This document shows positions 1,318 through 59,927 of a DNA stretch of 64,000 nt, in pieces; positions within the stretch are counted from its first letter, which is position 1, and each line of letters starts with the position of its first letter. This DNA comes from Salmonella phage vB_SenS-3. The stretch lies in the sequence record OR896822.1; one strand, given 5' to 3'. The position numbers were made by a program, and so were the translations under genes. The notes beneath the pieces were generated by a model. It had not been told where the DNA came from. It worked only from the letters and a program-made list of their open reading frames with translations, and ran no database searches.

Positions 1318-1344
1318 ATAAGTATAGGATGGGATACTACTCAG

Positions 1345-1869
1345 TTGGTATCCCATTCCTGCATTTTAAAATCCCCTTTACAAATTCGACATGATTATGT
1401 ATACTATATTCATACAGTTGAGGAGAATACTGTGGCAGGAAATGTAAAATATAAACGTGATGCTATATCACTAATGCGAGACGGTATAAAAAGTCAATAT
1501 AAAAAAGCCAATCGCTGCGAAATCTGTGGTAATGGTGAAGAATTAGAGCTTCATCATTACCATACAGTGTCTCTACTAGTTAAAAAATTTGCTAAAGAAC
1601 TCCAGTTGGATTTCACTGACGAAGAAACAGTCCTCTCAAATAGGACGGCATTCTATGAAAGATATAGGCATGAGCTAGTAGATGACACTGTTACCCTTTG
1701 TGTCCACCATCACCAACTATTACACAAGGTGTACACTAAAGAACCTCCCCTTTTCTCTGCTAATAAGCAGAAGGTATGGGTTCTTAAACAAAAGGAAAAG
1801 CTACAGAATCCTCAAGAAAAGACACAAGTCAAGACTGAAATTAAATCAGGATTCGCAAGGTTCTTATAA
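1345..1869 (+). CDS. HNH endonuclease (free-standing, between terminase and portal)
   Basis: Motifs CEICG...ELHHYH...N...CVHHHQLLH (C-x2-C, HH, CxHHHx3H). Likely true start is GTG at 1432 preceded by GAGGAG RBS; possible own promoter TTTACA-17-TATACT at about 1385-1415. Confidence 0.65.
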   Translation: MVSHSCILKSPLQIRHDYVYYIHTVEENTVAGNVKYKRDAISLMRDGIKSQYKKANRCEICGNGEELELHHYHTVSLLVKKFAKELQLDFTDEETVLSNRTAFYERYRHELVDDTVTLCVHHHQLLHKVYTKEPPLFSANKQKVWVLKQKEKLQNPQEKTQVKTEIKSGFARFL

Positions 1870-22860: not shown

Positions 22861-23189
22861 TGTCTGACAGGACTCTTTTACCGACCAACATGGGCGGGCT
22901 CGGTGGTGACGGTGTTATGCCTGGTATCGCTGCTTTTAGTGGTGCGCTGATTGATTCCTGGTTAGGTAATGGTGCGGGTGGTCGTGGTGTTGGTGCGGGT
23001 GGTGTGGATGGCGCGGTTTCCGTTGCTAGTACTGCTGCAAACATGCTGACTACTTCACTGGTAAGCGATATCGAATCCATTCAGAGCGGACTGAACAATC
23101 TGGGCCTAACTGTTGTACAGGGTCAGGGTACAACCAATCTGGCAATCGCTAACACAGGCGCAATGAACCTGAACGCTATTACCCAATAG
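22861..23189 (+). CDS. glycine-rich hypothetical protein (moron-like); in-frame TAG at 23187-23189 followed by a 65-codon open extension
   Basis: ATG at 22861 with AGGAG RBS 8 nt upstream; GC-rich Gly/Ala-rich ORF (GGLGGDGV...GNGAGGRGVGAGGVDG); frame stays open after the TAG to TGA at 23385-23387. Confidence 0.45.
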
Positions 23190-23334
23190 AATACTCAAAA
23201 CCTGTTGGCGTCTGTCCAGGGTTTTGTAGAGCTGAACACTGCGATCACCTCCAGCACTAGTACCATCGCTGGCGCGATCTCTGCTCAGTCGTTTGATCAA
23301 CAGCGTACAGCATTCCAGGAGCAACTTGCCACTG

Positions 23335-23358
23335 AAAAAAAAAAAAAAAAAAAAAAAA
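23335..23358 (+). repeat. 24-nt poly(A) homopolymer tract
   Basis: Uninterrupted run of 24 A, in frame within the open extension downstream of the TAG (would encode Lys8). Confidence 0.9.
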
Positions 23359-23554
23359 TATTGCTGCGAAACAAGCCTGAGTCTTGATTATCCTAGCAAC
23401 GCAATGCATGTTCTACTGTATTAACAGTTCGCTGATTCTTAGGCTGTTCTTATGTACAATATGAAAACACAAAATGCAAGAGGTTCGTTTTGCACCCTCT
23501 CAGAAAAAAAATTAATAAAATAAAGGAATTAGTAAAACAACTCCTTACTAAATA

Positions 23555-28471: not shown

Positions 28472-29245
28472 TTAGTCGTCCAGATCGCTAGCAGCTTCAG
28501 CGTCGATGCCTTTCTGAGAACCAGCATCTCCACCAGACTTAGCGTCACCGCCGTCTTGCTTCTCACGACCTTCCATGAAGGCGAGAATAGCTTCTTTCTG
28601 CTCTTCATAGGACGGAACCGGGTAGGTTTCTTCCAGAGAAGGAACTTTTTCGAACTTGATGAACTCACCAGTATCATCACACATAGCTTCACCGAGGATA
28701 TCAACATCAGCGGCGTGCAGTTTAGACTCAGCACTGGTAGGATCTTTCAGTTTCATCTGGAACTGCATTGCTGCGATCTGCTGTACATCGTACTCAGTAT
28801 CGAAGCCTTTACCTTTCTTCTCGATAGAAATATCGATATCGAATGGATCTGCCAGTTCAAGCTGCTTCATGATAGACTGGATGCCTTTCAGGATAGTAGC
28901 TTTAACTTCCATAACTTTCAGTTTGTTATCGGAACGGTCGATAACGAAGGCGATGTAGTTTTTCTTCGGTTTCAGCGGAACACGATTACCATCTTTGTCC
29001 AGCTCTTTCTCGAAGAAGCCCATTTCGTGAATCGGGTCAGCTTTACCGCGAACGAAGCTCTCTTTAGTACGGTTGAAACGCAGACACTCAAACGGAGCTG
29101 CATTACCATCTTTGTTAGTCAGCCAGTAGACATAACGTGGAAGAACACCAGAAACGATACGAACACGAGTTACACCGTTGTTGAATTTCAGGAAGTCGAT
29201 TTTATCGTTAGAACCGCCAGTAGTTTCGCCCCAAGACTTAGCCAT
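28472..29245 (-). CDS. putative ssDNA-binding protein (D11-like; acidic C-terminal tail)
   Basis: 257 aa; AAAGAGGAAA RBS; C-terminus DAEAASDLDD is acidic as in SSB-type proteins; weak inference. Confidence 0.4.
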   Translation of the reverse strand: MAKSWGETTGGSNDKIDFLKFNNGVTRVRIVSGVLPRYVYWLTNKDGNAAPFECLRFNRTKESFVRGKADPIHEMGFFEKELDKDGNRVPLKPKKNYIAFVIDRSDNKLKVMEVKATILKGIQSIMKQLELADPFDIDISIEKKGKGFDTEYDVQQIAAMQFQMKLKDPTSAESKLHAADVDILGEAMCDDTGEFIKFEKVPSLEETYPVPSYEEQKEAILAFMEGREKQDGGDAKSGGDAGSQKGIDAEAASDLDD

Positions 29246-29600
29246 ATTTTATTTCCTCTTTAAAGATTATCTTCGATTTATTGATTGCAATTAGTGGGTT
29301 AGTGTCGATTACAGAACGTGGTATCCATATGGGAACATATTGCATGTCCAAACTCGGATCGTTTGTAACCTTATATTCGGCATAATTTCGTAGACTTAGA
29401 ATTCCTAGATATTCTGCCAGTTGTCTATTAGACAATTTGTAAGGGTTATCAACAATAGTTGATTCATTCAAGATGAATGAAGAACCGACCAGTAGTTGGT
29501 GAGCATCAGGCTCTGCAAGCATTCTATTAAATAGCTTGACAATCAGGTCGGAGTTTCCTCTAGCTAAGAGGTAAATTCTCTCGTAATCAAAGAATTTCAT
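29238..29600 (-). CDS. hypothetical protein
   Basis: 120-aa ORF downstream of two tandem T5-type promoters on the minus strand. Confidence 0.4.
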   Translation of the reverse strand: MKFFDYERIYLLARGNSDLIVKLFNRMLAEPDAHQLLVGSSFILNESTIVDNPYKLSNRQLAEYLGILSLRNYAEYKVTNDPSLDMQYVPIWIPRSVIDTNPLIAINKSKIIFKEEIKYG

Positions 29601-29627
29601 TTTTGTCTCTCATCAATTTATGTATAT

Positions 29628-29657
29628 ATTATACATTAAATCGGGAGGATTTGACAA
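29628..29657 (-). promoter_or_regulatory. T5 early-type sigma70 promoter (proximal of tandem pair)
   Basis: Minus strand TTGTCA-18-TATAAT followed by ATATACATAAATTGATGAGAG element. Confidence 0.6.
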
Positions 29658-29728
29658 GTACAATTTTTATTTTTCTGCCTCGGACTTTCTTATCAATCCG
29701 AAACTTTCTCTCTCAAATTTATGTATAT

Positions 29729-29757
29729 ATTATACAATAATTATGAGTAGTTGCCAA
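29729..29757 (-). promoter_or_regulatory. T5 early-type sigma70 promoter (distal of tandem pair)
   Basis: Minus strand TTGGCA-17-TATAAT followed by ATATACATAAATTTGAGAGAG; shares an exact 21-nt block with the proximal promoter. Confidence 0.6.
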
Positions 29758-29765
29758 ATGCAATT

Positions 29766-30296
29766 TTACTTATCTAAGTCCTCACGTCGGCAAATATATC
29801 CTTTAAATAGTTCTTGCCTGGAATCCATACCTAGATGCTGTACTCTAAGTTCATTAGCTTTATTTATAGCTAATTCTAATTCCTCATAAGGGAATAATCC
29901 ACCATATATTTTAACACCTATACAGTTAGTTATTTCTACCTTCCATTTAGAAGAATTAGTATCCCAATGTACGCCTAAGTATCCAGAAGTACTTCTAGTG
30001 TTTCTATTTCTGCAGTTTTGCTGATGTGTGGTCTCTCGCAAGTTACTCCACCTATTATCCCACCTTATACGATTAATATGGTCTATCTCTTCTGGAAACC
30101 TGCCTTCCATATATAGGAAGGCAAGCCTATGTGCAGGATAAGATATTTTATCTATTTTTATATAGACATAATCATTAGAGTTACGAGATCCAGCAATACT
30201 TCCCTTTGCAGCTCTACCTTTAGCTACTCTACGAGTAAAATCACCTGTATCTGGATTATACTCGAAAAGTTCTTTGAGCTTATCTTGTGTTATCAT
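29766..30296 (-). CDS. HNH homing endonuclease
   Basis: 176 aa; motif YPAHRLAFLYMEGRFPEEIDHINRIRWDNRWSNL; N-terminus MITQ...FEY shared with the HNH at 42416..42874. Confidence 0.7.
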   Translation of the reverse strand: MITQDKLKELFEYNPDTGDFTRRVAKGRAAKGSIAGSRNSNDYVYIKIDKISYPAHRLAFLYMEGRFPEEIDHINRIRWDNRWSNLRETTHQQNCRNRNTRSTSGYLGVHWDTNSSKWKVEITNCIGVKIYGGLFPYEELELAINKANELRVQHLGMDSRQELFKGYICRREDLDK

Positions 30297-30297
30297 T

Positions 30298-31644
30298 TTA
30301 TACCTTAAATACTTCCTGGGCTAATCTAACTGCTTTCTCCGGAGTCATAGTAATAGTTTTCCATGCGTTATTGCGATATACGGCCATACGTCCAGAAGCC
30401 TGTCTTAAACCAGTACCTCCTTTCATAATTAAATCTACAACAATCGGATCTAGTTTTCCGTCAACAATACGTTGAACGCGACCTGCTAGCTGTTCTATGA
30501 GAGATTCATTATTAATGAGACTTCCCATTATTAAACAAGATAGCTCGTTAAGAGAAATACCTTCTGAGAAGATACTCTGAGCTGATGCAAGTACACAAGG
30601 TCCGCCCTCCGCTACATCTTTCTGGATTCTCAATCGATCATCCAAAGGAGTTGCACCTATAATCTCATAGGTTGTAACACCACGTTGTGCGAGAGCTTCT
30701 AGTATTGTTTGAATTAGTTCTGTTCTATCACTTACAAAGAGAACCTTATGCCCCATAGACACATATAAATGAGCTAGATTTATAATAGTCTCTCGATATT
30801 CAGGATGGTTATACACATCGTTAGCACGTAATGCCCACGGTACGTTCTGGTTTCCTGATAACTCAACAGGCACGGAGTACCTATGGATTGTGGGTGGAAT
30901 AGTGTTATTGACAGGTGGACTAAAGATCTTATATCCAAAGAAATCTTTGAACATAACTTGTAGGCCATCTTTACGTTTTAACGTACCCGATAAACCAATC
31001 TTGTAGCGAGCACATGAGATCTCTAGGAAATTAGTGAAAGTTGTAGCTACACAGTGGTGAACTTCATCAACTATAACAGTACCGAACACCTTAGAAAGAT
31101 TATTCGCATGTTTGTTCACTGTTTGTATATTACTGACCACGATTGGTGGATCAGTGTTATACTTTCCAGAACCTATAATACCAGGCTCAAATCCAAACCA
31201 TTTACGAACTTCTGCAGCCCACATTTCACGAATGGATGTGTTGGTACAGATTACCAGAGTTTTCTGGCCAAACTTATATGCAAGAGCTAGCGCTAAGATA
31301 GTTTTACCAAATCCAGGCTTACCATTAATAATACAAGTATCATCACACTCTTCATATATAGGAAGCTGATCTTCTTCACGTAGCTTGAACTGAGGTTCTG
31401 GTATTTCTACAGGAGCTAACGTGCGTTTATCAACTAATTCGTATTTCACTCCCTTAGCATCTAGTAAATCCAGACGCGTAATGGGGATCCACTTAATCTC
31501 TTTAGCAACAACACCACTATTCTTATACATAATAGGGTATTTACTAGTCATTGTCTCAATGTGATAAGTGGTTTGCTTACTACAATAATCCCAGAGTTCA
31601 TCATCGGGCTTGAAATAGGCTTTATTAGATATAACAACCTTCAT
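30298..31644 (-). CDS. SF2 DNA helicase (D10-like)
   Basis: 448 aa; Walker A GKPGFGKT; DEVH box VIVDEVHH; helicase C-terminal domain motifs. Confidence 0.75.
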   Translation of the reverse strand: MKVVISNKAYFKPDDELWDYCSKQTTYHIETMTSKYPIMYKNSGVVAKEIKWIPITRLDLLDAKGVKYELVDKRTLAPVEIPEPQFKLREEDQLPIYEECDDTCIINGKPGFGKTILALALAYKFGQKTLVICTNTSIREMWAAEVRKWFGFEPGIIGSGKYNTDPPIVVSNIQTVNKHANNLSKVFGTVIVDEVHHCVATTFTNFLEISCARYKIGLSGTLKRKDGLQVMFKDFFGYKIFSPPVNNTIPPTIHRYSVPVELSGNQNVPWALRANDVYNHPEYRETIINLAHLYVSMGHKVLFVSDRTELIQTILEALAQRGVTTYEIIGATPLDDRLRIQKDVAEGGPCVLASAQSIFSEGISLNELSCLIMGSLINNESLIEQLAGRVQRIVDGKLDPIVVDLIMKGGTGLRQASGRMAVYRNNAWKTITMTPEKAVRLAQEVFKV

Positions 31645-32138
31645 AATTTTATTCTAAGTCTAGGAATTTCAGGCTCCTCTTGATGGACTTGATAAATAAC
31701 AGGGCTATTATTTACCAGAATATAGCTTATATAAGCTGGAACGTAGGATAGCACGAATGGGTATGGGACTTTAGCCACATAACATTGATACTTTCCATTA
31801 TAAATTCTTGCAGAATGCAGAACTTTAGACGTGATAACATCGTAGAACGTAGTTTTCTTCCAGTTAATGAGATTTCCATCAGAATCTATGAACTGGCTAC
31901 GCTTTGACCCAACTAATTGGGACAACATTGATATTCTACCACGAATAGGGTAGAGCTTATACGGTAATTCTTTCCGCTTCTCAAATAAGGCTAACCTACG
32001 TTGAGAGAATGTGCCAGGCAACTCCCTGTTATCTAGCACATATTTATTATATCTTGTTGTAATTACGGAATAATCACCTTCCTGCTCAATTGATACAAAC
32101 GCCCGTAAAGCATATACGGGCAATTTGAAATCAAGCAC
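31641..32138 (-). CDS. hypothetical protein
   Basis: 165-aa ORF between DNA polymerase and helicase genes, overlapping both by a few nt. Confidence 0.45.
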   Translation of the reverse strand: MLDFKLPVYALRAFVSIEQEGDYSVITTRYNKYVLDNRELPGTFSQRRLALFEKRKELPYKLYPIRGRISMLSQLVGSKRSQFIDSDGNLINWKKTTFYDVITSKVLHSARIYNGKYQCYVAKVPYPFVLSYVPAYISYILVNNSPVIYQVHQEEPEIPRLRIKL

Positions 32139-40109: not shown

Positions 40110-40138
40110 AATTGATCCTCTCATCAATTTATATAAAT

Positions 40139-40167
40139 ATTATATATGAAAACTGAGTCGAAAGCAA
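40139..40167 (-). promoter_or_regulatory. T5 early-type promoter
   Basis: Minus strand TTGCTT-17-TATAAT followed by ATTTATATAAATTGATGAGAGG. Confidence 0.6.
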
Positions 40168-41297: not shown

Positions 41298-41404
41298 ATT
41301 TTTCGATTTCCTTAATTAAGAATTAAACAGAATAGTTCTTTCAAACTATGAGAATATTATATCAATAATTACAGGATTAAGCAACTGAAATTTTTCAGTA
41401 ACTG

Positions 41405-41650
41405 CTACACATCTAGTTCAACGATCTCCCAATCGTCAGCCAGGGCTTCGTCTAGGGAGAGTTCTACCTCTTGCTTATACGCTCGCTTTACATCCTCAGC
41501 CGTATCGTTAGGTAATGGCACAAACCTTTTAACAGTATCGGCATCAACGTTAAACTCGAAAAGCATAGTAAATGTTTTACTATTTTCCCAGCAATCTCGC
41601 TGGAGATATTTTACGTCTCCAGCTTTTAACAGATCAGTTAGTTTACTCAC
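41405..41650 (-). CDS. hypothetical protein
   Basis: 81-aa acidic ORF overlapping upstream gene stop by 8 nt. Confidence 0.35.
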   Translation of the reverse strand: MSKLTDLLKAGDVKYLQRDCWENSKTFTMLFEFNVDADTVKRFVPLPNDTAEDVKRAYKQEVELSLDEALADDWEIVELDV

Positions 41651-42347
41651 GGCGTTTTCCTTTCTCTTTATCGAGTTTTAGGGCAGCTTTAACAGCTTCA
41701 TTAACCAACGTGATAACTTCTTCACGACTCCATTTAAAGCCCAGAGCCTTAACATCAACTCCCAGCTTTTCCAGATGTTTAACAGAGGCTAATTCGTAGT
41801 GCATATAGTGAACGTTCTGTTGTTTACCTTCTGATAACAACCAAACACGATAGCAACCAACTGGATTAGTCATTGCTTTCTTGATTTCACCAATACACTG
41901 ATAGCCAGGAACCCAAACAAGTTCACCAACTTCAAATTCTTCTGCCATCGCATCATCAGGAATCAGCGGTGGATTCAATGGATCAACAATATCGTTTAAA
42001 CGAAGCAAAGCACCATAACGTTCCAGAACAGATTTAATCATCGCTACAGAACGATAATTACGATCTGCGATTTCTTCAAAAGAATCACCAGAAAGATACT
42101 GTTCAATTACGTTTGCAAGCTCAACACCTTCAATCAGTGTTCCACGCTTCTTCTTTTTCATTTCCGCAACCTGAACCTGACGATCTCTCCATTCTTCAAT
42201 CATTCGTTCCATAGTTGGGTTAGAAGAAACACCGAGCATTTCACATGCTGCTTTCTTAGTACCACCATTCTCTAGATGTTCAATAACCTTTTTAAAGGTT
42301 TCATCAGGGATTTCATGGATAAGTTTCTTTCTACGAGAACCAGCCAT
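41643..42347 (-). CDS. putative HTH DNA-binding protein
   Basis: 234 aa; HTH-like segment GTKKAACEMLGVSSNPTMERMIEEW; driven by a promoter near-identical to the classical T5 PN25 promoter; GAGGAG RBS. Confidence 0.45.
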   Translation of the reverse strand: MAGSRRKKLIHEIPDETFKKVIEHLENGGTKKAACEMLGVSSNPTMERMIEEWRDRQVQVAEMKKKKRGTLIEGVELANVIEQYLSGDSFEEIADRNYRSVAMIKSVLERYGALLRLNDIVDPLNPPLIPDDAMAEEFEVGELVWVPGYQCIGEIKKAMTNPVGCYRVWLLSEGKQQNVHYMHYELASVKHLEKLGVDVKALGFKWSREEVITLVNEAVKAALKLDKEKGKRRE

Positions 42348-42378
42348 ATTTAAACTCCTCTCTCAAATTTATGAATCT

Positions 42379-42407
42379 ATTATACAGAAAAATTTTCCTG
42401 AAAGCAA
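42379..42407 (-). promoter_or_regulatory. T5 PN25-like strong early promoter
   Basis: Minus strand TTGCTTTCAGGAAAATTTTTCTGTATAATAGATTCATAAATTTGAGAG, matching the PN25 promoter as I recall it. Confidence 0.7.
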
Positions 42408-42415
42408 ATAAATTT

Positions 42416-42874
42416 TTAAGCTGGATATAGCTCGGCTTTGAAAGCAGCTCTAACTTCTATGGCCTCTTCTAACGAATTGCATTGTTGGTACTTACGAGTA
42501 TTTCCTTTTTGCATAAGTACACAGTATTTTTCACCGCGCATATAGATATTAGATTCTCCTAACTTATTGTCCTTTCTCACATCTATATTATGCATTTGAT
42601 CAGATCTATTGGAATCTTCTAGATTCTCTATGAAATTACAATCCTTAATTCTGTTATTATGGTCTATCTCTTCAGGAATATATCCTTTATGATACAGAAA
42701 GACTAACTGATGTTCTCCCCATTTCTTGCCTTTGAAACCAATCCTGATATACCCTTTGTGCTTCCCACCCGCAAACTGCCCTATTAACCTCTTTTGGTTA
42801 GTTTTCCTCCATTTGAGGTGGCCAGTTTCTGAATCATATTCAAAGGCTTCTCTAACCTCTTCTTGAGTTATCAT
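42416..42874 (-). CDS. HNH homing endonuclease (paralog of 29766..30296)
   Basis: 152 aa; N-terminus MITQEEVREAFEYDSETGHLKW and HQLVFLYHKGYIPEEIDHNNRIKDCN align with the other HNH. Confidence 0.7.
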   Translation of the reverse strand: MITQEEVREAFEYDSETGHLKWRKTNQKRLIGQFAGGKHKGYIRIGFKGKKWGEHQLVFLYHKGYIPEEIDHNNRIKDCNFIENLEDSNRSDQMHNIDVRKDNKLGESNIYMRGEKYCVLMQKGNTRKYQQCNSLEEAIEVRAAFKAELYPA

Positions 42875-43103
42875 CTTCTTTAATTAATTCTCCTAATTCC
42901 TTATAAACACGTTCTAACTCAAAAGGGATACGTAAGGATATTCGTACCTTACGTTGTTTTAACAGCCATATAGATACGTTCGGAATACCAGCCAATCTGG
43001 GAGGGACCACTCGGCATAGTTTCTCCGCAGTATCGTAAACAGAAGTTTTCCGTTCTTTTACTGAAAACTTCCTTGTTTCCCACTTTTTATTCTTCGCTGT
43101 CAT
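42852..43103 (-). CDS. small hypothetical protein
   Basis: ATG at 43103 (MTAKNKKWETRKF...) overlapping the 3' end of the upstream gene; weak RBS. Confidence 0.2.
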   Translation of the reverse strand: MTAKNKKWETRKFSVKERKTSVYDTAEKLCRVVPPRLAGIPNVSIWLLKQRKVRISLRIPFELERVYKELGELIKEDDNSRRG

Positions 43104-45876
43104 TTCTAGCCCCCAATTCAGCAAGAGCTTCCTCATGCATCTGACGTTCTTCATCTGTCATAAACTTAACTGGAATCGGCATACATTCGATCTTACAGTA
43201 AGTTCTGTACCAGTCCACAATCTTTTCCGTATCCAGATCTTTACCGATACCCATCATGCCAAGATACATACGAGCATATTTTGGGTTAGCGCTCTGACCT
43301 GTCTTAAGGAAGAAATCCTTCTTCTTATTCTTAAGAGCTTCGATAAACGGTTTGATTGTTACGTTTGAACACTTTTTAATATCTTCCCAGAACATGTCGT
43401 GCATCTTATGGAAGAATGCAGCTCTATCGTTTGGTTTATCCTTGATATACTGTTCAACGTGTTCCACTGTTACATCTTTAATAGAATCCAGATGATAATA
43501 GCGAACCAGAAGTAACTTGGCTTCATAGGCATCTGCATGACGTGGTGCACAATATTCAGGAGTTGAGTGCAAAATAGCTTTGATTCGCTCTTCTGTATAC
43601 TCTTTGCCTGCACCTTCGATAGTCCCCCAGCTTTCACTGAAGATATCAATAGTTGCACCTTGATCGAGAAGATAATAACGCAAAGTACTGGTATAGTTTC
43701 TAGATTCCAGCTCACGACGGCGTGCGTACAGTTGCTGAGCTAACTCAATCCAACCCTCGTCAATATTATATTGCTCGGAACCAGCAGAGAATCCACTCGT
43801 AGATTTATCAATAAAATAATAAATGTTCTGAGCACCACGGTCGCGCCTGATTGCTTGAAAACGCATGTTTGGCGCTTGGTTTGAGGTTCTAGTGATTACG
43901 AATACGTTATCAAAATAGTTAAAGTCAACACCACTCGTTACAGATGGACTACATAACAAACAATCAATCTGTTGATCAATTAGCTCATTAGTTGTATAAT
44001 CCAGAATACGTCGGATATCTACATCAGACGTAGAGTTTGAGTGAATTTCTTTAACTAACGCACCAGTATTACGACGTAATGCCATTCCCTTCTCATTCAG
44101 TTCATCCGGGCCACAGTCAGATACTAGGATTGATTTCTCCCCCATCTCTAAAGATGTTTGAAGTGCAACCCAAATACTGGATTCATCAGGGAACTCATAT
44201 GCATGAGCTTTTGCCAGCATTTTACGGTGATGATTATAGAACGCGACCGGTTTATCAAAATCAATCAAAGAACCATAGGCTTCAATCGTTTCTGCACTGA
44301 TATCACCATCAGATAAGATAACCGTTTTTGCAGTAATAAGAATATCGCGAAGAACCTGAATACATTCACGACGGTTTTTAACAACCGGGGCGAATAACAG
44401 ATCATTCATTACTGCGTCACATTCATCAATAAAGATCGTATCAATCTGACCCACAAAGCTCTTGAACTTATGGATAGAGTGAATAGTTGAAGACATACGA
44501 TCAATAGCACCACGTTTGAAGTTCAGCATATCAACTGACTTATCATACTGACCAGCACCGAATTTCTTCGCGTTTGAAGATACAAGTGCCCTAGTATTTG
44601 TGATTGCAATAAAGTTTCCTGGAAGAACACCTGCATCTAGCCACTTAGTTACTGCTGTGGTTTTACCTGTACCAAGACTTGCCTTAACAAATGTTAAATG
44701 TCCTTTTGGGGGTACAATGTTAATCTTCAAGTATGGAACTTCTGGCGGTGAATCTGTGTCCAGACGCTTTAGTGGTACACCTTTTAAGTTGGGTGGAATC
44801 TCACGTTTGGAGTTATTCACAAAGGCTTTTAGAGCCTGCTTACGACCGTTATTAAAGTAATCTTGAATATTACGACTATTATCTTTAGTTGCAATATATT
44901 CAGATAAAGCTGGTTTAATCTCACGTTCTAACCACGTAAAGTCAACACCATCTTCTAACGCTCTGTGATAAAGTTTTGGGATAATACGCAGGTACACCCC
45001 ATCCTCAGCTTCTTCTAGTTCGCTGATGGTTTCTTCCACTTTATCAGATGCAGCTTTCTTGCCTTTAATTTGGTCAAGTAAGGAGTAGAATTCTTCTTTA
45101 AACTCACCTCTAGTTGTTTCAAAGTCAACTAGGTTATTGGGTAGATTCACTTTCGAACCCTTAACATACACAAGACGTGGTTTATTCTCCGCTTTAAACG
45201 GATCGACTATACCATCATCAAACAAGGGATCTGCGAAATAGTGAAGCTGAACAGAAGAATAATAAGCTAAGTCAGCAATATCAAAGCCATACTTTTGCTT
45301 ACTACTGTCATTGATAGATGTAAATAAGAACTTTAACTGTCCCTGCGTTACCTTGACATTAGATTCTAGCATTAAGTGCATTCGGATACCTGGTTTTAAT
45401 CCAGCCGAAGACGATGCATGGGCAATAAACCCTGCATCAAGAGGAAACATATCCTCACTAATACTATTCAACATCTTAATAATATGACGTGCCATGCCAA
45501 CAAGATTAAACTTGTCATAGCCACCAGTATCTACAATACCATCCACGTCCATAGCGATAATATGACTAGGATTGGATACGTTAAAGTTTCCTCTGGTACG
45601 ACGCACATTATCTTTTGGAGCTAGACATTTACCACGAATAGCTACAATATGCGGGTCTTTGGTAAGACGACGCATGATAGATAACATTTCAGCAAGGTTT
45701 TGCGGGTCAAGTTCTTCAAGTACATCAAATTTGAAGGGCATGGAAGCTGGTTTACCTTCTGGATGCTCTTTAGAGAATCGCTTTGCAAAGGTATAATCTT
45801 CCACTTTGATCTCTTTCCAGATGCCAGTGGCTTTATCTCTGGAAAATCCTGCGTGACCTTGTAGGATTGAGAACAC
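43087..45876 (-). CDS. putative primase-polymerase (AEP-like) / P-loop helicase fusion protein
   Basis: Start moved to GTG at 45876 with AGGAG RBS 7 nt upstream (ORF track ATG at 45999 has no RBS); N-terminal D-x-D motif HIIAMDVDG resembles AEP primase motif I; central Walker A SLGTGKTT and DExD-like IFIDECD. Confidence 0.6.
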   Translation of the reverse strand: MFSILQGHAGFSRDKATGIWKEIKVEDYTFAKRFSKEHPEGKPASMPFKFDVLEELDPQNLAEMLSIMRRLTKDPHIVAIRGKCLAPKDNVRRTRGNFNVSNPSHIIAMDVDGIVDTGGYDKFNLVGMARHIIKMLNSISEDMFPLDAGFIAHASSSAGLKPGIRMHLMLESNVKVTQGQLKFLFTSINDSSKQKYGFDIADLAYYSSVQLHYFADPLFDDGIVDPFKAENKPRLVYVKGSKVNLPNNLVDFETTRGEFKEEFYSLLDQIKGKKAASDKVEETISELEEAEDGVYLRIIPKLYHRALEDGVDFTWLEREIKPALSEYIATKDNSRNIQDYFNNGRKQALKAFVNNSKREIPPNLKGVPLKRLDTDSPPEVPYLKINIVPPKGHLTFVKASLGTGKTTAVTKWLDAGVLPGNFIAITNTRALVSSNAKKFGAGQYDKSVDMLNFKRGAIDRMSSTIHSIHKFKSFVGQIDTIFIDECDAVMNDLLFAPVVKNRRECIQVLRDILITAKTVILSDGDISAETIEAYGSLIDFDKPVAFYNHHRKMLAKAHAYEFPDESSIWVALQTSLEMGEKSILVSDCGPDELNEKGMALRRNTGALVKEIHSNSTSDVDIRRILDYTTNELIDQQIDCLLCSPSVTSGVDFNYFDNVFVITRTSNQAPNMRFQAIRRDRGAQNIYYFIDKSTSGFSAGSEQYNIDEGWIELAQQLYARRRELESRNYTSTLRYYLLDQGATIDIFSESWGTIEGAGKEYTEERIKAILHSTPEYCAPRHADAYEAKLLLVRYYHLDSIKDVTVEHVEQYIKDKPNDRAAFFHKMHDMFWEDIKKCSNVTIKPFIEALKNKKKDFFLKTGQSANPKYARMYLGMMGIGKDLDTEKIVDWYRTYCKIECMPIPVKFMTDEERQMHEEALAELGARNDSEE

Positions 45877-46372
45877 AACAATACTCCTATGTTGGTTATT
45901 CGAATATCTTTCTTTAGGACTATTCAAAAGAATAGAACAACTATTACTACCATTTACACAAACATTAATCATCATCAAGCAGTATGAATAAGTTATCATA
46001 CCTCAGTGCTGCGCTCTCTTAACTCTTATCCAGATCAGAACCTAGGTCATTGGCCGCTAAGCCGATTCTGATTGCCCTCACTATCCTATTGGTAGGTGGC
46101 TACTGGACGTGTCACCATTCGCTGCTCTTTTCGTTCGCACCCCCATATAAAGCTCTGCCTATATAACGAGCTAAATATGCACGGTTTGGATTTACCTTTC
46201 CGAATTCAGGGTACGCAGATCACTTAATTGATAATTAACTAATGCAGTATAAACACTAGTAATAGTTAAAACAACCCTTAATGGGGCAGCCTAACTGTTC
46301 CGTATTGCGGACTGTAAACAAGAAAAATTAGCAAAATCAATTTTTACTAATGTCTCTCAATTCAATATAAAT

Positions 46373-49656: not shown

Positions 49657-49684
49657 AGCTTTCTCCTCTCAAATTTATAAATCA

Positions 49685-49713
49685 ATTATACATAAGTTTT
49701 AGCTCGAAAGCAA
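49685..49713 (-). promoter_or_regulatory. T5 early-type promoter
   Basis: Minus strand TTGCTT-17-TATAAT followed by TGATTTATAAATTTGAGAGGAG. Confidence 0.6.
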
Positions 49714-53104: not shown

Positions 53105-55435
53105 ATGAGCCATCGCATCGAAAAAGTAATTAAACGTGACGGTACTGTTCAGGACTTTGCTCCTGAAAAACTCAATGATTGGGCTGCATGGGCATGTAAA
53201 GATACTGACGTAAGTTGGTCTGCCGTAGTTATGGCTGCCCTGAAAAATCTACCCAAAGGTGTTGTAGACTCCGATACACTCCAAGATGTGTTAATTAAAG
53301 CCGCTGAAGGTCTTATCAAAGACAACCCAGCATATGATACTGTAGCAAAGGAATTACGTCTTGCGCAGATGCGTAAACGCCTATATGATTCCTTTGAACC
53401 TCCTTCTCTGCGTTTCTTCCACGATCATATGATTCGTGTTGGCGCCTGGGAAGACATGAGTGCATGGATTAGCGATGATCAGTTTGATGCTCTGAATCAA
53501 GTTATTGATCATGATCGCGATCGTTTATTCACCAGTGGTGGACTGAAACAGTTCTTCGACAAGTATTCCCGTCGTAATATTGCAACTGGTGAAATTTATG
53601 AAACCCCGCAGTTTGCCTACATGGGTATGGCAATGGCGATGTTATCTCAACCTAACTGGACAATTCTCGATGCAATCGACCTCTACAACGCAATGTCACT
53701 CCATAAAATCAACGTGCCGACTCCACCTCTCGTGGGTCTTAGGAGCAGCGACCGCGGTTTTGCTTCTTGTTGTCTTGTTGATAGTACTGATACCCTCGAT
53801 TCAATCGACACAGCCGAGCACATCGTCTTCAAAATGGTCGCAGCCAGAGCGGGAATCGGGTATCATCTTGAAAGCCGATCAATTGCTGATCCGGTGCGAA
53901 ATGGGGCATTCCCGCATTCCGGAAAACTGCCATATTATCGACACATTGACCGATCAGTAAAAGCTAACACTCAGCAAACCCGTGGTGGTTCTGCTACTGT
54001 GTCTTACCCATACTTCGATCCTGAAATCATTCAGTTGATGCAGGTTAAGCAGCAACGTGCTACAGACGAGAATAAAATCGATAAGATGGATTACTCTCTG
54101 AGCTTTAACAACCTTCTGTTAAAACGTTACCTGAAAAATGAAGATATTACGCTAATGTCCTACTTCTACGCACCAGAAGTTCATGAAGCGTTTTATGGCG
54201 AAGATGAGGCTAAGTTTGAAGAAATCTACGTGGCAGCGGAGAAACGTGTGGCATCTCTTACAAAGATCGACCACGAAGGAAAAACAATTCCAGCAGCTCC
54301 TAGAATCTCTGCAAAAGAAATCCTAGATACTTGGTTACGTATCCGTATGGAAACAGGGCGTATGTATGCTCATCACATTGGTGAATCTAACCGTCATGGT
54401 AACTTCCTTGACCCGATTCGTATGACCAACCTTTGTGTTGAAATTACTCAGCCAACCCGTCCATTCCATCACATTACGGAGCTGTATAAGACCCAAGATC
54501 AGTTAGACGATATGCGTCCAGAAGATATTGGTGAAGTATCTCTGTGTAACTTAGGTGGTGTTGTACTAGGTCGTATGGAATCTCTGGCTGAATGGGAGAA
54601 AACTTGCTACATTCTTCTGAAATTCGTTGATACAATCATCGAGATTCAGGATTACCCATTCCCAACTATGGAGTACACGGCTAAGAAACGTCGTAACGTT
54701 GGTATTGGTCTGATGAACGCAGCAGGTGCAATGGCAGCAGAAGGTTTGGCTTACGAAGGTGTTGAAGCCCGTAACTGGATTCACCGTGAAGCTGAAAAGC
54801 TGTCCTACTTCCTACATAAAGCCTCTGTACGTCTGGCTAAAGAACAAGGTGCATGTGACTGGTTTAATCGTACTAAGCCTTCGCAAGGAACTCTGGTAAT
54901 CGACACGTACAAGAAAACTGTTGATGAACTGGTAACTGTAGGTCTAGAAATGGATTGGGAATCTCTGCGTGCAGATATTCTGAAATATGGTATGCGCAAC
55001 TCTGTTCTGACTGCTCAGATGCCAGGTGAAAGTTCCTCTGTACTGCTAGGTGTTACTAACTCTATCGAACCGCCCCGTAAGATCGTATCTATCAAGGGTA
55101 GTGCAGTGAATAAAGTAATTGCAATTGCTCCAGGTGCAACTGATTGGGATACATTAATGAGCTATAAACTGGCTTATGATGTAGATCGTATCGAGTGGAT
55201 CAAATGGGTAGCAACCATGCAGAAATTATTCAGCCAGTCTATCAGTACGAATATGTACTATGACTACACCAAGTTCGAGAATGAAATCATTCCCGGCCCA
55301 GTAGTAGTTCGTGACTTTATGACTGCTGTTAAGTACGGTTGGAAAACTTGGTACTACGCTAACTTCAACACTGAAAATGGTGGTGGAGCTGGTGAAGAAG
55401 CAGCAGGTTGTGCATCAGGTGGTTGTAACCTATAA
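53105..55435 (+). CDS. nrdA: ribonucleoside-diphosphate reductase alpha subunit (class Ia)
   Basis: ATP-cone start MSHRIEKVIKRDG; uninterrupted 776-aa frame; AAGGAAAG RBS; C-terminal Cys/Gly-rich tail. Confidence 0.85.
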   Translation: MSHRIEKVIKRDGTVQDFAPEKLNDWAAWACKDTDVSWSAVVMAALKNLPKGVVDSDTLQDVLIKAAEGLIKDNPAYDTVAKELRLAQMRKRLYDSFEPPSLRFFHDHMIRVGAWEDMSAWISDDQFDALNQVIDHDRDRLFTSGGLKQFFDKYSRRNIATGEIYETPQFAYMGMAMAMLSQPNWTILDAIDLYNAMSLHKINVPTPPLVGLRSSDRGFASCCLVDSTDTLDSIDTAEHIVFKMVAARAGIGYHLESRSIADPVRNGAFPHSGKLPYYRHIDRSVKANTQQTRGGSATVSYPYFDPEIIQLMQVKQQRATDENKIDKMDYSLSFNNLLLKRYLKNEDITLMSYFYAPEVHEAFYGEDEAKFEEIYVAAEKRVASLTKIDHEGKTIPAAPRISAKEILDTWLRIRMETGRMYAHHIGESNRHGNFLDPIRMTNLCVEITQPTRPFHHITELYKTQDQLDDMRPEDIGEVSLCNLGGVVLGRMESLAEWEKTCYILLKFVDTIIEIQDYPFPTMEYTAKKRRNVGIGLMNAAGAMAAEGLAYEGVEARNWIHREAEKLSYFLHKASVRLAKEQGACDWFNRTKPSQGTLVIDTYKKTVDELVTVGLEMDWESLRADILKYGMRNSVLTAQMPGESSSVLLGVTNSIEPPRKIVSIKGSAVNKVIAIAPGATDWDTLMSYKLAYDVDRIEWIKWVATMQKLFSQSISTNMYYDYTKFENEIIPGPVVVRDFMTAVKYGWKTWYYANFNTENGGGAGEEAAGCASGGCNL

Positions 55436-55444
55436 TAAAAACAA

Positions 55445-55470
55445 GGAGATCTTCGGGTCTCCTTTTTTCT
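55445..55470 (+). terminator. rho-independent terminator after nrdA
   Basis: Hairpin AGGAGATC-TTCG-GGTCTCCT followed by TTTTTT. Confidence 0.7.
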
Positions 55471-55482
55471 TTGAAATTTTAC

Positions 55483-55511
55483 TTGCTAATCTCTACCAGA
55501 TTTGCTATAAT
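55483..55511 (+). promoter_or_regulatory. T5 early-type promoter for nrdB
   Basis: TTGCTA-17-TATAAT with TG extension (TGCTATAAT). Confidence 0.65.
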
Positions 55512-55542
55512 ATTCCTGAAATAGTGAGAAAGAGGAAAATCA

Positions 55543-56688: not shown

Positions 56689-57218
56689 TGATAGCAGCAA
56701 TCTATGCAACTGGGCCGAATGGGGAGTTCGGCCTCAATGGTAAGCTCCCCTGGGGTTCTTTCAAAGAAGAACTAGATATCTTCTATGCTACATTGGATTC
56801 TCTGGCACCTGACAATATTATTGTAGGAGCAGGAACTTGGTTAGCATTCCCTGAGACTCTGCAAAAAAGAATACTAGGAGATTCTGACCTATTTATTTAT
56901 GCAAATAGACCACTACCGAACTCTATAAGATCAGCTACACGCATAAGCAACATTGGATACCGTCTGCCTGATTTTCTCAAGGAAGAGGTAACTGTAGTAT
57001 TAGGGGGAGCAACTCTGCTTCTTGAAATGTATGTCAAAAATCATCTAGATATGGCGTATATCTCTACTGTTACTTCAGCCACACCATTATCTGCTGATGT
57101 ACATCTGCATCATCATATTACTTTAACTAATTCAATGGCAACTAGAATGGACTATGTGGCAGGACAGAATGCAGATAAAACGCTTTCATTCTTACAAGAA
57201 TTGGTGATATTTAAATGA
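56688..57218 (+). CDS. dihydrofolate reductase
   Basis: 176 aa; N-terminal [22 protein letters not shown] resembles DHFR N-terminus (MISLIAA...IGMENAMPW); start overlaps nrdB stop (TAATG); precedes thymidylate synthase. Confidence 0.7.
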
Positions 57219-58494: not shown

Positions 58495-58524
58495 ATACTT
58501 CTAATTTGACAGAAGGATTTAATA

Positions 58525-59103
58525 ATGACAGCCATAGTAGCATTTAAATATAAAGATAAAGTATACTTAGCTGGTGATCGTATGGGTTCTAATGGCTATA
58601 CGAAACTGCTGGTTAAAAATCCGAAAGTATTCAAAATCTCTGATGATTTGTACTTCGGATACACTAGTTCCTTCTACATGGGACAATTACTAGAGCATAG
58701 CTTTACTGTACCACCACGTTTAGCAGATATTTCCGATGATAAATATTTATATACGGAAATAGTACCTAAATTACGTGATATGTTTAACCAGAAAGATTTT
58801 GGCGAAAAGAAAAATGAAAAATATGCTGAACCTAATCTGGGACAATTTATTATGCTCTACAAAGGAAGAATCTTTATTTTCCAATCTAATGCTTCTATTC
58901 TAGAAGTTGAATATGCCGGTGTAGGCTGTGGAGGAGAAGATGTACTTTCCAGTATTCGTACAGGTTTAGCTATTGCGGATTGTCGAGCCACAGATTTAGA
59001 TGTAGATGATATATTTGAAATCATTGATCTGGCTTTTACGCATTGTGCAGATTATATGTGTGGTGTATCTTCCCAACATGATGTTTTAGTAATTGGAGAA
59101 TAA
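58525..59103 (+). CDS. HslV/proteasome-beta-like Ntn-hydrolase family protein
   Basis: 192 aa; N-terminus MTAIVAFKYKDKVYLAGD (Thr at position 2, cf. HslV MTTIVSV...AGD); GVGCGGEDV resembles HslV GSGG motif; from memory. Confidence 0.5.
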   Translation: MTAIVAFKYKDKVYLAGDRMGSNGYTKLLVKNPKVFKISDDLYFGYTSSFYMGQLLEHSFTVPPRLADISDDKYLYTEIVPKLRDMFNQKDFGEKKNEKYAEPNLGQFIMLYKGRIFIFQSNASILEVEYAGVGCGGEDVLSSIRTGLAIADCRATDLDVDDIFEIIDLAFTHCADYMCGVSSQHDVLVIGE

Positions 59104-59105
59104 AT

Positions 59106-59375
59106 ATGTCTATTCTTTTATCTGCTTTAGAAGCAAAACAAAATACTATTGCTAGCATTAAAAAGGAAGTAATTGACCTAGAATCACTTATTGCCGTAGA
59201 GATTGACAAAGCTATTAAAGATAAAGAATTTAACTGTCACATCCAGGGATTAACTGAATACTCAGAAAACGCTAGAAATAGCGTCATGCAAAAACTTAGC
59301 AAACTAGGTTATGTTGTAGAAGCTAAGTATGAACAGCGTGAAGGTTTTTGGCTTGAAATTGATTGGAGCAAATAA
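59106..59375 (+). CDS. hypothetical protein
   Basis: 89-aa ORF, stop overlaps RNase H start (TAATG). Confidence 0.4.
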   Translation: MSILLSALEAKQNTIASIKKEVIDLESLIAVEIDKAIKDKEFNCHIQGLTEYSENARNSVMQKLSKLGYVVEAKYEQREGFWLEIDWSK

Positions 59376-59851: not shown

Positions 59852-59871
59852 TAAATAAATTAAAAATTCAC

Positions 59872-59900: not shown

Positions 59901-59927
59901 ATTCGTATTGAAAGTGAGGAGGGCTTT

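What the first reader, a model, noticed from the sequence alone, without database searches (positions are those of the whole stretch)
29766..30296. Paralogous HNH homing endonucleases inserted within the replication module (second copy at 42416..42874; third, different HNH at 1345..1869)
The two minus-strand HNH proteins share N-terminal MITQ...FEY and the EIDH(I/N)NRI motif, and sit between conserved replication genes (D11-like/D10-like, and HTH-protein/primase-helicase). The third HNH, of a different subtype (CxxC...HH...CxHHH), lies between terminase and portal with its own candidate promoter. Free-standing homing endonucleases mark insertion hotspots and may drive marker exclusion in co-infections.
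Basis: partly seen in the sequence, partly recalled or inferred. Interest (0 to 1): 0.4.

Follow-up and report, generated by a model that had tools for sequence, protein, structure and literature searches.

The report
Two mobile HNH genes, one nickase
In this T5-like Salmonella phage, two small nuclease genes in the replication region are ordinary selfish "homing endonuclease" genes that come and go between close relatives, while the third is the conserved T5 DNA-nicking enzyme, so the finding is real but already known.

Summary
The window is an Epseptimavirus (T5-like) genome about 99.9% identical to Salmonella phage PMBT36. All three ORFs exist.

**HNH1 (29766-30296, minus strand) and HNH2 (42416-42874, minus strand)**
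- Both are I-HmuI-type HNH_3 proteins. They share only 28% identity, so they are family members, not recent duplicates.
- Both behave as free-standing homing endonuclease genes. About 64 of ~440 T5-like records carry HNH1 and about 35 of ~450 carry HNH2.
- Each insertion sits at the very 3' end of a host gene: the D10 helicase for HNH1, a small ORF upstream of D2 for HNH2.
- All four presence/absence combinations occur among relatives.
- PMBT36 has an empty HNH2 site. It differs from the window by a ~3 kb SNP-dense tract centred on HNH2, against a background of about 1 SNP per 1-2 kb. This looks like co-conversion.
- HNH2 is under purifying selection (pN/pS 0.11).

**Third ORF (true CDS 1432-1869)**
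- It is not a homing gene. It is 80% identical to the phage T5 nicking endonuclease, whose structure is solved (PDB 9QGV/9QGX).
- It sits between terminase and portal across Demerecviridae.

Relatives already annotate all three this way. Cleavage and homing were inferred, not tested. Interest is low.

The parts
29766..30296 (-). HNH1: free-standing I-HmuI-type HNH (HNH_3) homing endonuclease gene, 176 aa. The start codon lies 1 nt after the new D10 stop.
   Evidence: ORF. Pfam HNH_3 E=3.8e-15 and PHROG 99. Annotated 'homing endonuclease' in PMBT36, bux and gmork. Full-length DNA copies at >=90% identity in about 64 records only.
29769..30319 (-). The 551-nt HNH1 insertion relative to empty sites. 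It replaces the last 8 codons of D10 (KIAFGNCS) with 6 new ones (QEVFKV). It also carries the HEG's weak Shine-Dalgarno sequence and its ORF up to the TAA shared with the empty-site sequence.
   Evidence: Alignment with empty sites of rokbiter and DT57C. BLAST block boundaries 29768/30320. Translations of D10 C-termini. Sequence read.
30326..30328 (-). Three adjacent substitutions (codons GTT AGA in the window, GTA CAA in rokbiter; the second codon changes Gln to Arg in D10), 6-8 nt from the HNH1 junction. They are linked to HEG presence and are a candidate target-site immunity change.
   Evidence: In IMG/VR, CAA+empty 24 contigs, AGA+filled 2, AGA+empty 0, CAA+filled 0.
30298..31644 (-). D10-like superfamily-2 helicase, the host gene whose 3' end carries HNH1.
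   Evidence: Pfam ResIII and Helicase_C. Annotations in relatives.
29729..29757 (-). Early-type sigma-70 promoter match (TTGGCA-17-TATAAT) starting 9 nt after the HNH1 stop. It is retained in empty sites, where it overlaps the D10 3' end.
   Evidence: Leader motif copy at 29710-29734.
29009..32000 (.). SNP-dense patch around HNH1 relative to rokbiter (empty site). It is bordered by near-identical DNA at 12.5-29 kb and 32-34 kb.
   Evidence: 57 differences in this ~3 kb, against 0-2 per 500 bp in the neighbouring stretches.
42416..42874 (-). HNH2: free-standing HNH_3 homing endonuclease gene, 152 aa. Its start overlaps the extended end of the upstream small ORF by 23 nt.
   Evidence: ORF. Pfam HNH_3 E=1.9e-9 and PHROG 99. 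Present in 35 records only. pN/pS 0.11 against the S124 copy.
42875..43025 (-). Divergent 3' part of the small ORF (42852..43103, PHROG 5291) that travels with HNH2. Differences from HEG-less alleles fall mostly at third codon positions. Candidate immune target allele.
   Evidence: Alignment A1. SNP list. This allele at >=98.7% identity occurs in 8 records. Seven are listed among the closest-clade (>=98.9%) HNH2 carriers; the eighth, Ob_P, has an annotated 459-nt CDS at the HNH2 position that matches the window at 97-99%.
41366..44389 (.). ~3 kb mosaic tract centred on HNH2 relative to the otherwise ~99.9% identical PMBT36, which has an empty HNH2 site. Inferred co-conversion tract.
   Evidence: about 90 SNPs plus an unalignable 41455-41578 segment inside the tract, and 100% identity outside it. 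The core 42350-42950 matches KFSSM, gmork and Sw2 at 99-100%.
42360..42410 (-). Promoter and leader of the D2 gene immediately downstream of HNH2. The 3' junction of the insertion lies just upstream of it.
   Evidence: Sharp junction at TAAAAA|TTTATTTGCTTTCAGG in alignment A1. Leader motif at 42360-42384.
1432..1869 (+). Orthologue of the phage T5 nicking endonuclease (T5.153): a zinc-finger HNH, 145 aa, GTG start. A core gene, not a homing element.
   Evidence: PDB 9qgv/9qgx 'Nicking endonuclease' E=1e-75. The PDB chain matches the translated 94-aa N-terminal part of T5.153 apart from the mutated His. 80% identity over 145 aa. Conserved in about 440 records plus other Demerecviridae.
1327..1405 (+). 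Terminator-like hairpin after the terminase gene (1327-1358), then a promoter match TTTACA-17-TATACT (1377..1405) upstream of the nickase gene.

Best explanation
HNH1 and HNH2 are two distinct free-standing homing endonuclease genes of the I-HmuI-like HNH_3 family. Each is inserted at the extreme 3' end of a replication-module gene and directly upstream of the next early promoter.

The inferred mechanism runs as follows. In a mixed infection with a relative that lacks the gene, the enzyme nicks or cuts the HEG-less allele near the insertion point. Recombinational repair from the HEG-carrying genome then copies in the HEG together with up to 1-1.5 kb of flanking DNA on each side. The carrier allele is protected in two ways: the insertion itself disrupts the site, and linked substitutions alter it. 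For HNH1 these are three adjacent substitutions changing Gln to Arg in D10 (codons GTT AGA versus GTA CAA). For HNH2 it is a diverged 3' end of the small ORF.

What is shown here: family membership, precise presence/absence junctions, independent assortment of the two genes, flanking mosaic tracts, linkage of flank alleles, and purifying selection on HNH2.

What is inferred: the actual cleavage, its site, and biased inheritance.

The third ORF (1432-1869) is a different thing. It is the conserved T5-type site-specific nicking endonuclease encoded between terminase and portal. By homology to T5 it introduces the strand-specific nicks typical of T5-like virion DNA.
For: Family:
- Pfam HNH_3 and PHROG 99 match both proteins.
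- A profile of six family members hits only I-HmuI (1u3e) in the PDB, E=2e-5, across the D-H...N...N motif. D72, H73, N85 and N97 are invariant in that alignment.

Mobility:
- HNH1 DNA occurs in about 64 records out of 442 that match the flanks-only query.
- HNH2 DNA occurs in 35 records out of 451 that match its region.
- Junctions are exact against the empty sites of rokbiter, DT57C and Sepoy.
- All four combinations exist. Both genes: window, gmork, Sw2. HNH1 only: PMBT36, bux. HNH2 only: atrejo, MSP1. Neither: rokbiter.

Co-conversion:
- Window versus PMBT36 shows a 3 kb SNP-dense tract only around HNH2.
- There is a similar patch around HNH1 versus rokbiter.
- Two further SNP-dense patches lie where PMBT36 has HEG-like genes that the window lacks.

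Linkage of flank alleles:
- The HNH2 flank allele occurs only in HNH2 carriers.
- The AGA/CAA codon state is perfectly linked to filled/empty HNH1 sites in IMG/VR.

Selection: HNH2 has pN/pS 0.11 with saturated synonymous sites, the same as the neighbouring D2 gene.

Literature: homing endonuclease genes are reported as the main source of differences among T5-like genomes (PMC10644984). Intronless homing with co-conversion is established for T4 Seg enzymes (PMC2330249).

Nickase.
Against: - No cleavage or homing was tested, and no target site was mapped.
- The exact donor of the 3 kb HNH2 tract is not in the collection. Outside the 600-bp core, the tract is only 95-99% like any carrier. It could therefore reflect several ordinary recombination events rather than one homing event.
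- Rokbiter is mosaic elsewhere too, so the HNH1 patch is less clean.
- Neither HEG has its own promoter match, and both have weak ribosome-binding sites, so expression is unproven.
- The C-terminal DNA-binding domain was not confirmed: no Pfam AP2 hit and an unusable AlphaFold model.
- Records in the collection are phylogenetically non-independent and include GenBank/RefSeq duplicates, so the counts are approximate.
Confidence: 0.85

Rival explanations
1. HNH1 and HNH2 are accessory nucleases kept for a phage function, such as recombination-primed replication, degradation of competitor or host DNA, or anti-defence. Under this view their patchy distribution comes from ordinary homologous recombination and deletion among co-infecting T5-like phages, not from endonuclease-driven homing.
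For: - Strong purifying selection on HNH2.
- Both sit inside the replication/recombination module and are co-transcribed with it.
- T5-like genomes are generally mosaic.
- The donor of the whole HNH2 tract was not found.
Against: - They are absent from most relatives, including the ~99.9% identical PMBT36, so they are dispensable.
- The family is the classical homing-endonuclease family and occurs at many different sites, up to 7 copies per T5-like genome and 4729 places in 2920 phage records.
- SNP-dense tracts coincide with every HEG presence/absence difference between the window and PMBT36.
- Flank alleles are tightly linked to HEG presence.
Confidence: 0.08
2. The two HNH genes are inactive remnants of past invasions. 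They no longer cleave and simply hitch-hike.
For: - Homing endonuclease genes are expected to cycle through invasion, fixation, inactivation and loss (as summarised in PMC3326045).
- Weak ribosome-binding sites and no promoter of their own.
- HNH2 has non-consensus residues in the motif region (DCN and NLE where relatives have DNR and NLR).
Against: - Both ORFs are intact.
- The invariant D-H...N...N residues are retained.
- All 33 full-length HNH2 copies listed align over the whole 459-nt query (one spans 460 nt) despite identity as low as 77%, with pN/pS 0.11.
- The near-isogenic window/PMBT36 pair implies a recent gain or loss with a flanking tract.
Confidence: 0.07
3. The third ORF (1345/1432-1869) is a third free-standing homing endonuclease marking an insertion hot spot between terminase and portal.
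For: - It is an HNH-type nuclease with its own promoter match.
- The terminase/nickase junction is indeed an insertion hot spot in other phages. T5 carries an extra T5orf172-domain gene there. IrisVonRoten, ESCO30 and SB9 carry about 720 extra bases annotated as a homing endonuclease.
Against: - The ORF itself is conserved at this position in about 440 close records and in Klebsiella, Vibrio and Proteus T5-like phages.
- It is 80% identical to the T5 nicking endonuclease, which has solved structures.
- It is unrelated to HNH1 and HNH2 by phmmer.
Confidence: 0.02

Closest known systems
Phage T5 H-N-H endonucleases F-TflI/II/IV (characterised) and F-TflV/F-TflVI (hegE, hegF; annotated)
   Same: Same phage group and the same HNH_3 architecture, with the MITQ...(F/L)EY N-terminus and the (I/V)DHxNR motif. 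HNH1 is 53.5% identical to F-TflV and HNH2 is 34% identical to F-TflVI. All are free-standing genes between phage genes.
   Different: The insertion sites differ. The T5 genes lie in the early region next to the tRNA cluster, whereas HNH1 and HNH2 lie at the D10 3' end and upstream of D2. The targets of HNH1 and HNH2 are unknown.
I-HmuI (Bacillus phage SPO1; PDB 1u3e), a nicking HNH homing endonuclease
   Same: It is the only solved structure hit by the family profile, E=2e-5, covering the catalytic HNH(N) region. It belongs to the same His-Me finger group 2 (HNH_3) as described in PMC5714182. This suggests, but does not show, that HNH1 and HNH2 nick one strand.
   Different: I-HmuI is encoded in a group I intron, whereas HNH1 and HNH2 are free-standing. 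The DNA-binding C-terminal parts are not alignable.
T4 free-standing homing endonucleases SegE/SegF/SegG and MobE (intronless homing, marker exclusion)
   Same: The genetic behaviour inferred here is the same: an intergenic or gene-end HEG, cleavage of the HEG-less allele in co-infection, and co-conversion of flanking markers (PMC2330249).
   Different: The Seg enzymes have a GIY-YIG catalytic fold. Their homing is experimentally demonstrated, whereas here it is inferred from comparative genomics only.
Phage T5 nicking endonuclease (T5.153; PDB 9QGV/9QGX)
   Same: The third ORF is its orthologue. It is 80% identical over all 145 residues, keeps the CxxC...LELHHYH...CxHHH residues, and has the same position between the large terminase and portal.
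   Different: 29 substitutions. In T5 an extra T5orf172-domain gene (T5.154) separates it from the terminase gene. Nick sites in this phage are not known.
Terminase-associated HNH proteins of cos phages (HK97 gp74 type)
   Same: A small HNH nuclease encoded within the packaging module next to terminase and portal. This resemblance comes from general knowledge and from the mention in PMC5714182.
   Different: There is no Pfam PF01844 HNH match. The T5 enzyme is described as a nicking enzyme rather than a terminase cofactor. Membership was not established.

Membership tests
I-HmuI-like HNH endonucleases (Pfam HNH_3, His-Me finger group 2): HNH1 and HNH2 | Match to the HNH_3 profile above Pfam's gathering score | tested here: met
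   55.7 and 37.4 bits against a cut-off of 24.8. PHROG 99 E=2.6e-59 and 2.5e-41.
I-HmuI-like HNH endonucleases (Pfam HNH_3, His-Me finger group 2): HNH1 and HNH2 | Catalytic and metal-binding residues D-H ... N ... N retained | tested here: met
   D72, H73, N85 and N97 (HNH1 numbering) are invariant in the six-sequence alignment. The profile alignment to I-HmuI 1u3e covers the same motif region.
I-HmuI-like HNH endonucleases (Pfam HNH_3, His-Me finger group 2): HNH1 and HNH2 | Beta-beta-alpha-metal fold plus a C-terminal sequence-specific DNA-binding module (AP2/NUMOD type) | tested here: inconclusive
The single-sequence AlphaFold model has mean pLDDT 43 and is unusable. No Pfam AP2 hit even at E<=10.
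Free-standing homing endonuclease genes | Presence/absence polymorphism at one precise site between otherwise colinear genomes | tested here: met
   HNH1: a 551-nt insertion, with empty sites in rokbiter and DT57C and in most of the 442 records. HNH2: a 457-nt insertion, with empty sites in Sepoy, PMBT36 and rokbiter and in most of the 451 records.
Free-standing homing endonuclease genes | Not inside an intron or intein; located between genes or at gene ends | tested here: met
   HNH1 replaces the last 8 codons of D10. HNH2 replaces the last codon of the small ORF. The host genes stay intact.
Free-standing homing endonuclease genes | Co-conversion of flanking markers with the gene | tested here: met
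   A 3 kb SNP-dense tract centred on HNH2 versus PMBT36, with 100% identity outside it. A patch around HNH1 versus rokbiter. Flank alleles linked to the HEG. These patterns are consistent with co-conversion, which was not observed directly.
Free-standing homing endonuclease genes | Site-specific cleavage or nicking of the HEG-less allele, and immunity of the HEG-carrying allele | not testable with these tools
   Requires enzyme assays on DNA from PMBT36 or Sepoy (HNH2) and from rokbiter or DT57C (HNH1).
Free-standing homing endonuclease genes | Super-Mendelian inheritance in mixed infections | not testable with these tools
   Requires phage crosses.
T5-type nicking endonuclease (third ORF) | Sequence orthology to T5.153 / PDB 9QGV, with the catalytic His and the Cys/His zinc ligands retained | tested here: met
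   E=1e-75 against the PDB. 80% identity over 145 aa. The His mutated to Q or A in the PDB entries is His in the window, and the CxxC and CxHHH motifs are retained.
T5-type nicking endonuclease (third ORF) | Conserved synteny between the large terminase and portal across Demerecviridae | tested here: met
   439 records cover >=80% of the ORF, with portal annotated adjacent. Klebsiella, Vibrio and Proteus T5-like phages also match. The T5 layout is shown.
T5-type nicking endonuclease (third ORF) | Introduces site- and strand-specific nicks in phage DNA | not testable with these tools
   Inferred from the name of the PDB entries and from the record annotations 'nicking endonuclease' and 'SciA'.
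Terminase-associated HNH (HK97 gp74 type; third ORF) | Match to the classical HNH profile (PF01844) and functional coupling to terminase | tested here: not met
   No Pfam family at E<=0.01. The only match is a 9-bit hit to AI2M-like_HNH at E=1.4. Functional coupling cannot be tested here.

The most novel reading that the evidence does not exclude
The window phage and PMBT36 may form a natural near-isogenic pair that captures a single recent HNH2 homing event. In that case the ~3 kb tract 41366-44389 would be its co-conversion footprint. The diverged 3' end of the small ORF, and for HNH1 the three adjacent substitutions next to the rewritten D10 helicase C-terminus, would be the immunity determinants. 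If true, this would give a ready-made system for measuring homing tract length and target immunity for uncharacterised T5-like HNH enzymes. It would also allow asking whether rewriting the D10 tail affects helicase function.
Probability: 0.3. Interest if true: 0.3.

Novelty: already known. Interest (0 to 1): 0.15.

Why it matters
- It fixes the annotation of three genes. Two are selfish homing endonuclease genes and one is the core T5 nickase, which should not be treated as mobile.
- It gives exact insertion junctions and linked flank alleles that can guide target-site assays.
- It shows that local SNP clusters between nearly identical T5-like phages coincide with differences in homing endonuclease gene content. 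This is relevant when typing or engineering therapeutic or biocontrol Salmonella phages.
- It does not reveal a new kind of system.

Tried and rejected
- **More paralogues in the window.** phmmer of each protein against all six-frame ORFs found only the HNH1-HNH2 pair.
- **C-terminal AP2 domain.** Pfam at E<=10 found none.
- **Structure of HNH1.** The single-sequence AlphaFold2 model had mean pLDDT 43 and was discarded, so no fold search was run. Using the six-sequence alignment was not possible, because sequences from fetched loci cannot be submitted.
- **Direct phmmer of HNH1 against the PDB.** Only chance hits. The family profile was needed to reach I-HmuI.
- **Literature on the T5 'sci' (single-chain interruption) genes and on PDB 9QGV.** Nothing usable turned up: one search failed on a short search term, and searches returned only spurious matches. 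The nickase function therefore rests on the PDB molecule name, record annotations and my recollection of the 1970s sci-mutant work.
- **Exact donor for the HNH2 tract.** Looked among KFSSM, gmork, Ob_P and Sw2. None matches beyond the 600-bp core.
- **Promoter/leader pattern.** A first pattern with the wrong spacing found nothing. The corrected pattern found six copies.
- **Recent intragenomic duplication of HNH1 and HNH2.** Rejected, since they share only 28% identity.

Full report
**What the window is**

Megablast of three parts of the window against the phage collection shows a T5-like Salmonella phage of the genus Epseptimavirus (Demerecviridae). The closest record is Salmonella phage PMBT36, PP926504.1. 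A full comparison gives 99.9% identity over window positions 1-41455. Background differences run at about one per 1-2 kb, except in a few sharply bounded patches.

**The observation**

All three ORFs exist.
- HNH1 (29766..30296, minus strand, 176 aa) and HNH2 (42416..42874, minus strand, 152 aa) both pass Pfam's HNH_3 threshold. Both match PHROG 99, 'HNH endonuclease'.
- They align over the first 101 residues at 36% identity, E=3e-18. Full-length identity is only 28%.
- HNH1 is closer to T5 F-TflV (53.5%), which sits at a different locus in T5 next to the tRNA region. They are therefore members of one large family, not a recent duplication.
- No further relative of either is encoded in the window.
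- A profile built from six family members hits a single solved structure, the nicking homing endonuclease I-HmuI (1u3e, E=2e-5). The match runs across the D-H...N...N motif, whose residues are invariant in the alignment.
- The family is very widespread. tblastn with HNH1 finds 4729 places in 2920 phage records, with up to seven copies per T5-like genome.

**HNH1 is an insertion at the 3' end of the D10 helicase gene**

- The HNH1 DNA is found at >=90% identity in about 64 records.
- A synthetic flanks-only query matches 442 records. In the sampled rows, most are a single uninterrupted piece of about 1300 bp, which means an empty site. Carriers span 1851 bp.
- Alignment with the empty sites of rokbiter and DT57C defines a 551-nt insertion at window 29769-30319.
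- In empty genomes D10 ends ...EKAVQLAKIAFGNCS. In the window it ends ...EKAVRLAQEVFKV. The element therefore replaces the last eight codons with six of its own, and the HEG start codon follows the new stop by one base.
- The downstream early promoter (TTGGCA-17-TATAAT) is retained.
- Six to eight bases from the junction, three adjacent bases differ: carriers read GTT AGA where empty genomes read GTA CAA, changing the second codon from Gln to Arg. In IMG/VR contigs the four possible combinations occur as follows:

| Codon state and site | Contigs |
|---|---|
| CAA + empty | 24 |
| AGA + filled | 2 |
| AGA + empty | 0 |
| CAA + filled | 0 |

- Relative to rokbiter, which is nearly identical to the window over 12.5-29 kb, differences pile up between about 29.0 and 32.0 kb, around HNH1.
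- Phage Shivani carries a different intact HNH gene at the same site. It shares only the last ~47 codons with HNH1.

**HNH2 is an insertion at the end of a small ORF upstream of the D2 promoter**

- HNH2 DNA occurs in 35 records: 9 at >=95% identity and 26 at 77-83%. The region as a whole matches 451 records.
- Alignment of the window and Sw2 (filled), S124 (filled, distant clade) and Sepoy (empty) shows a sharp 3' junction immediately upstream of the D2 promoter. The 5' junction lies after the penultimate codon of an 83-aa ORF (PHROG 5291).
- The last ~140 nt of that ORF differ strongly between filled and empty alleles, mostly at third codon positions.
- This flank allele is found at >=98.7% identity in only eight records. 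Seven are listed among the closest-clade HNH2 carriers; the eighth, Ob_P, carries an annotated 459-nt CDS at the HNH2 position that matches the window at 97-99%.
- PMBT36, the near-identical relative, has HNH1 but an empty HNH2 site. Against it the window shows about 90 SNPs plus an unalignable 120-bp stretch, confined to 41366-44389. Identity is 100% on either side.
- Only the central ~600 bp (HNH2 plus the linked flank) matches known carriers (KFSSM, gmork, Sw2) at 99-100%. The rest of the tract has no exact donor in the collection.
- Between the two HNH2 clades, synonymous sites are saturated (pS 0.77) while pN is 0.084. The ratio of 0.11 equals that of the neighbouring D2 gene, so the protein is under purifying selection.

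**Independent assortment and other polymorphisms**

All four combinations of the two genes are seen among close relatives:

| HNH1 | HNH2 | Phages |
|---|---|---|
| present | present | window, gmork, Sw2 |
| present | absent | PMBT36, bux |
| absent | present | atrejo, MSP1 |
| absent | absent | rokbiter |

The other SNP-dense patches between the window and PMBT36 coincide with two genes that PMBT36 has and the window lacks. One is an unnamed gene at the nrdA/nrdB junction and the other is an annotated homing endonuclease after RNase H. This matches published statements that homing endonuclease genes are the main source of differences among T5-like genomes (PMC10644984; PMC8594841; PMC3326045).

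**Mechanism**

The best-supported reading is intronless homing, as shown experimentally for T4 SegE, SegF and SegG (PMC2330249).
1. In a mixed infection the enzyme cuts the HEG-less allele near the insertion point. By analogy with I-HmuI it probably nicks one strand.
2. Recombinational repair copies in the gene and its flanks.
3. The carrier is immune because the insertion and the linked substitutions alter the site.

The comparative signatures are shown here. The cleavage, its position and the biased inheritance are inferred. Neither gene has its own promoter match, and both have weak ribosome-binding sites. Low expression by read-through or coupling is therefore likely but untested.

**The third ORF is something else**

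- Its real CDS is 1432..1869 (GTG start, 145 aa), as annotated in PMBT36 and rokbiter.
- It matches PDB entries 9QGV and 9QGX, named 'Nicking endonuclease', at E=1e-75.
- Translating the 94-aa N-terminal part of T5.153 held in the fetched T5 region shows that the PDB chain matches it over that part, apart from a His-to-Gln or His-to-Ala change in the LELHHYH motif; that His is intact in the window.
- Identity to the T5 protein is 80% over all 145 residues.
- The ORF is present at >=80% coverage in 439 records, with portal annotated adjacent. It is also detectable in Klebsiella, Vibrio and Proteus T5-like phages. Records call it 'nicking endonuclease' or 'SciA'.
- The terminase/nickase junction is an insertion site in other phages. 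T5 has an extra T5orf172-domain gene there, and IrisVonRoten, ESCO30 and SB9 have about 720 extra bases annotated as a homing endonuclease. In this window the site is empty.

**Verdict**

Everything found belongs to well-known categories, and relatives are already annotated this way. The only modest added value is the exact junctions, the linked candidate immunity changes, and the near-isogenic window/PMBT36 pair. Interest is low.

Noticed in passing
window 55513/55535 and 59852/59853, with flanks 55001-57000 and 59001-60000: PMBT36 carries two extra genes that the window lacks: a 678-nt unnamed gene at the nrdA/nrdB junction and a 513-nt 'homing endonuclease' after RNase H. Each empty site in the window is flanked by an SNP-dense patch, for example 74 differences in 55501-56000 and 58 in 59501-60000.
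   Followed up: partly
window 58497-59095 (ORF 58525..59103, plus strand, 192 aa): The window has about 330 more bases than PMBT36 here. They include a 192-aa ORF where PMBT36 has an 85-aa ORF. This looks like a cassette replacement, and its function was not examined.
   Followed up: no
window 41455-41578 (inside ORF 41405..41650, minus strand): A ~120-bp stretch inside the HNH2 tract is only 43-57% identical to all six compared relatives (PMBT36, KFSSM, gmork, Ob_P, Sw2, rokbiter). It appears to be a divergent allele of the small ORF downstream of D2, of unknown origin.
   Followed up: partly
window 23001-23500: A cluster of 17 differences from PMBT36 and 23 from rokbiter lies in the region between the late (tail) genes and the early genes read from the other strand. 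Two gap openings in the first ~41 kb shift PMBT36 coordinates by 16 bases; their position was not located.
   Followed up: no
L011 (T5 AY543070) 274-1107; compare window 1318-1431: T5 has an extra 277-aa gene (T5.154) between the large terminase and the nickase. It carries T5orf172/MUG113, CapR and treble-clef zinc-finger domains. IrisVonRoten, ESCO30, SB9 and EC100 have about 720 extra bases here, annotated as a homing endonuclease in IrisVonRoten. The site is empty in the window.
   Followed up: partly
L005 (Shivani KP143763) 960-1510, homologous to window 29766-30320: A different intact 177-aa HNH gene occupies the HNH1 site in Shivani. It is about 64% identical to HNH1 overall, but nearly identical over the last ~47 codons. 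This suggests a chimeric gene or replacement of one HEG by another. The record annotates a shorter ORF starting from an internal Met.
   Followed up: partly
window 29609-29633, 29710-29734, 40120-40144, 42360-42384, 49666-49690 (all minus strand), 62093-62117 (plus strand): There are six copies of a -10 box plus leader motif (TATAAT-N5-CATAAATT-N-RRGAG), against 0.01 expected by chance. Two of them lie immediately downstream of HNH1 and HNH2. The copy after HNH2, with its upstream TTTATTTGCTTTCAGGAAAA, resembles the classical T5 PN25 promoter; that resemblance is from memory and was not checked.
   Followed up: partly
window 43087-45999 (minus strand): The origin-binding/primase-like ORF is 970 aa here and in PMBT36, but it is annotated as 929 aa (2790 nt) in rokbiter, Sepoy and Ob_P. 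The N-terminal 41 codons overlap the small ORF and may be an over-extension.
   Followed up: no
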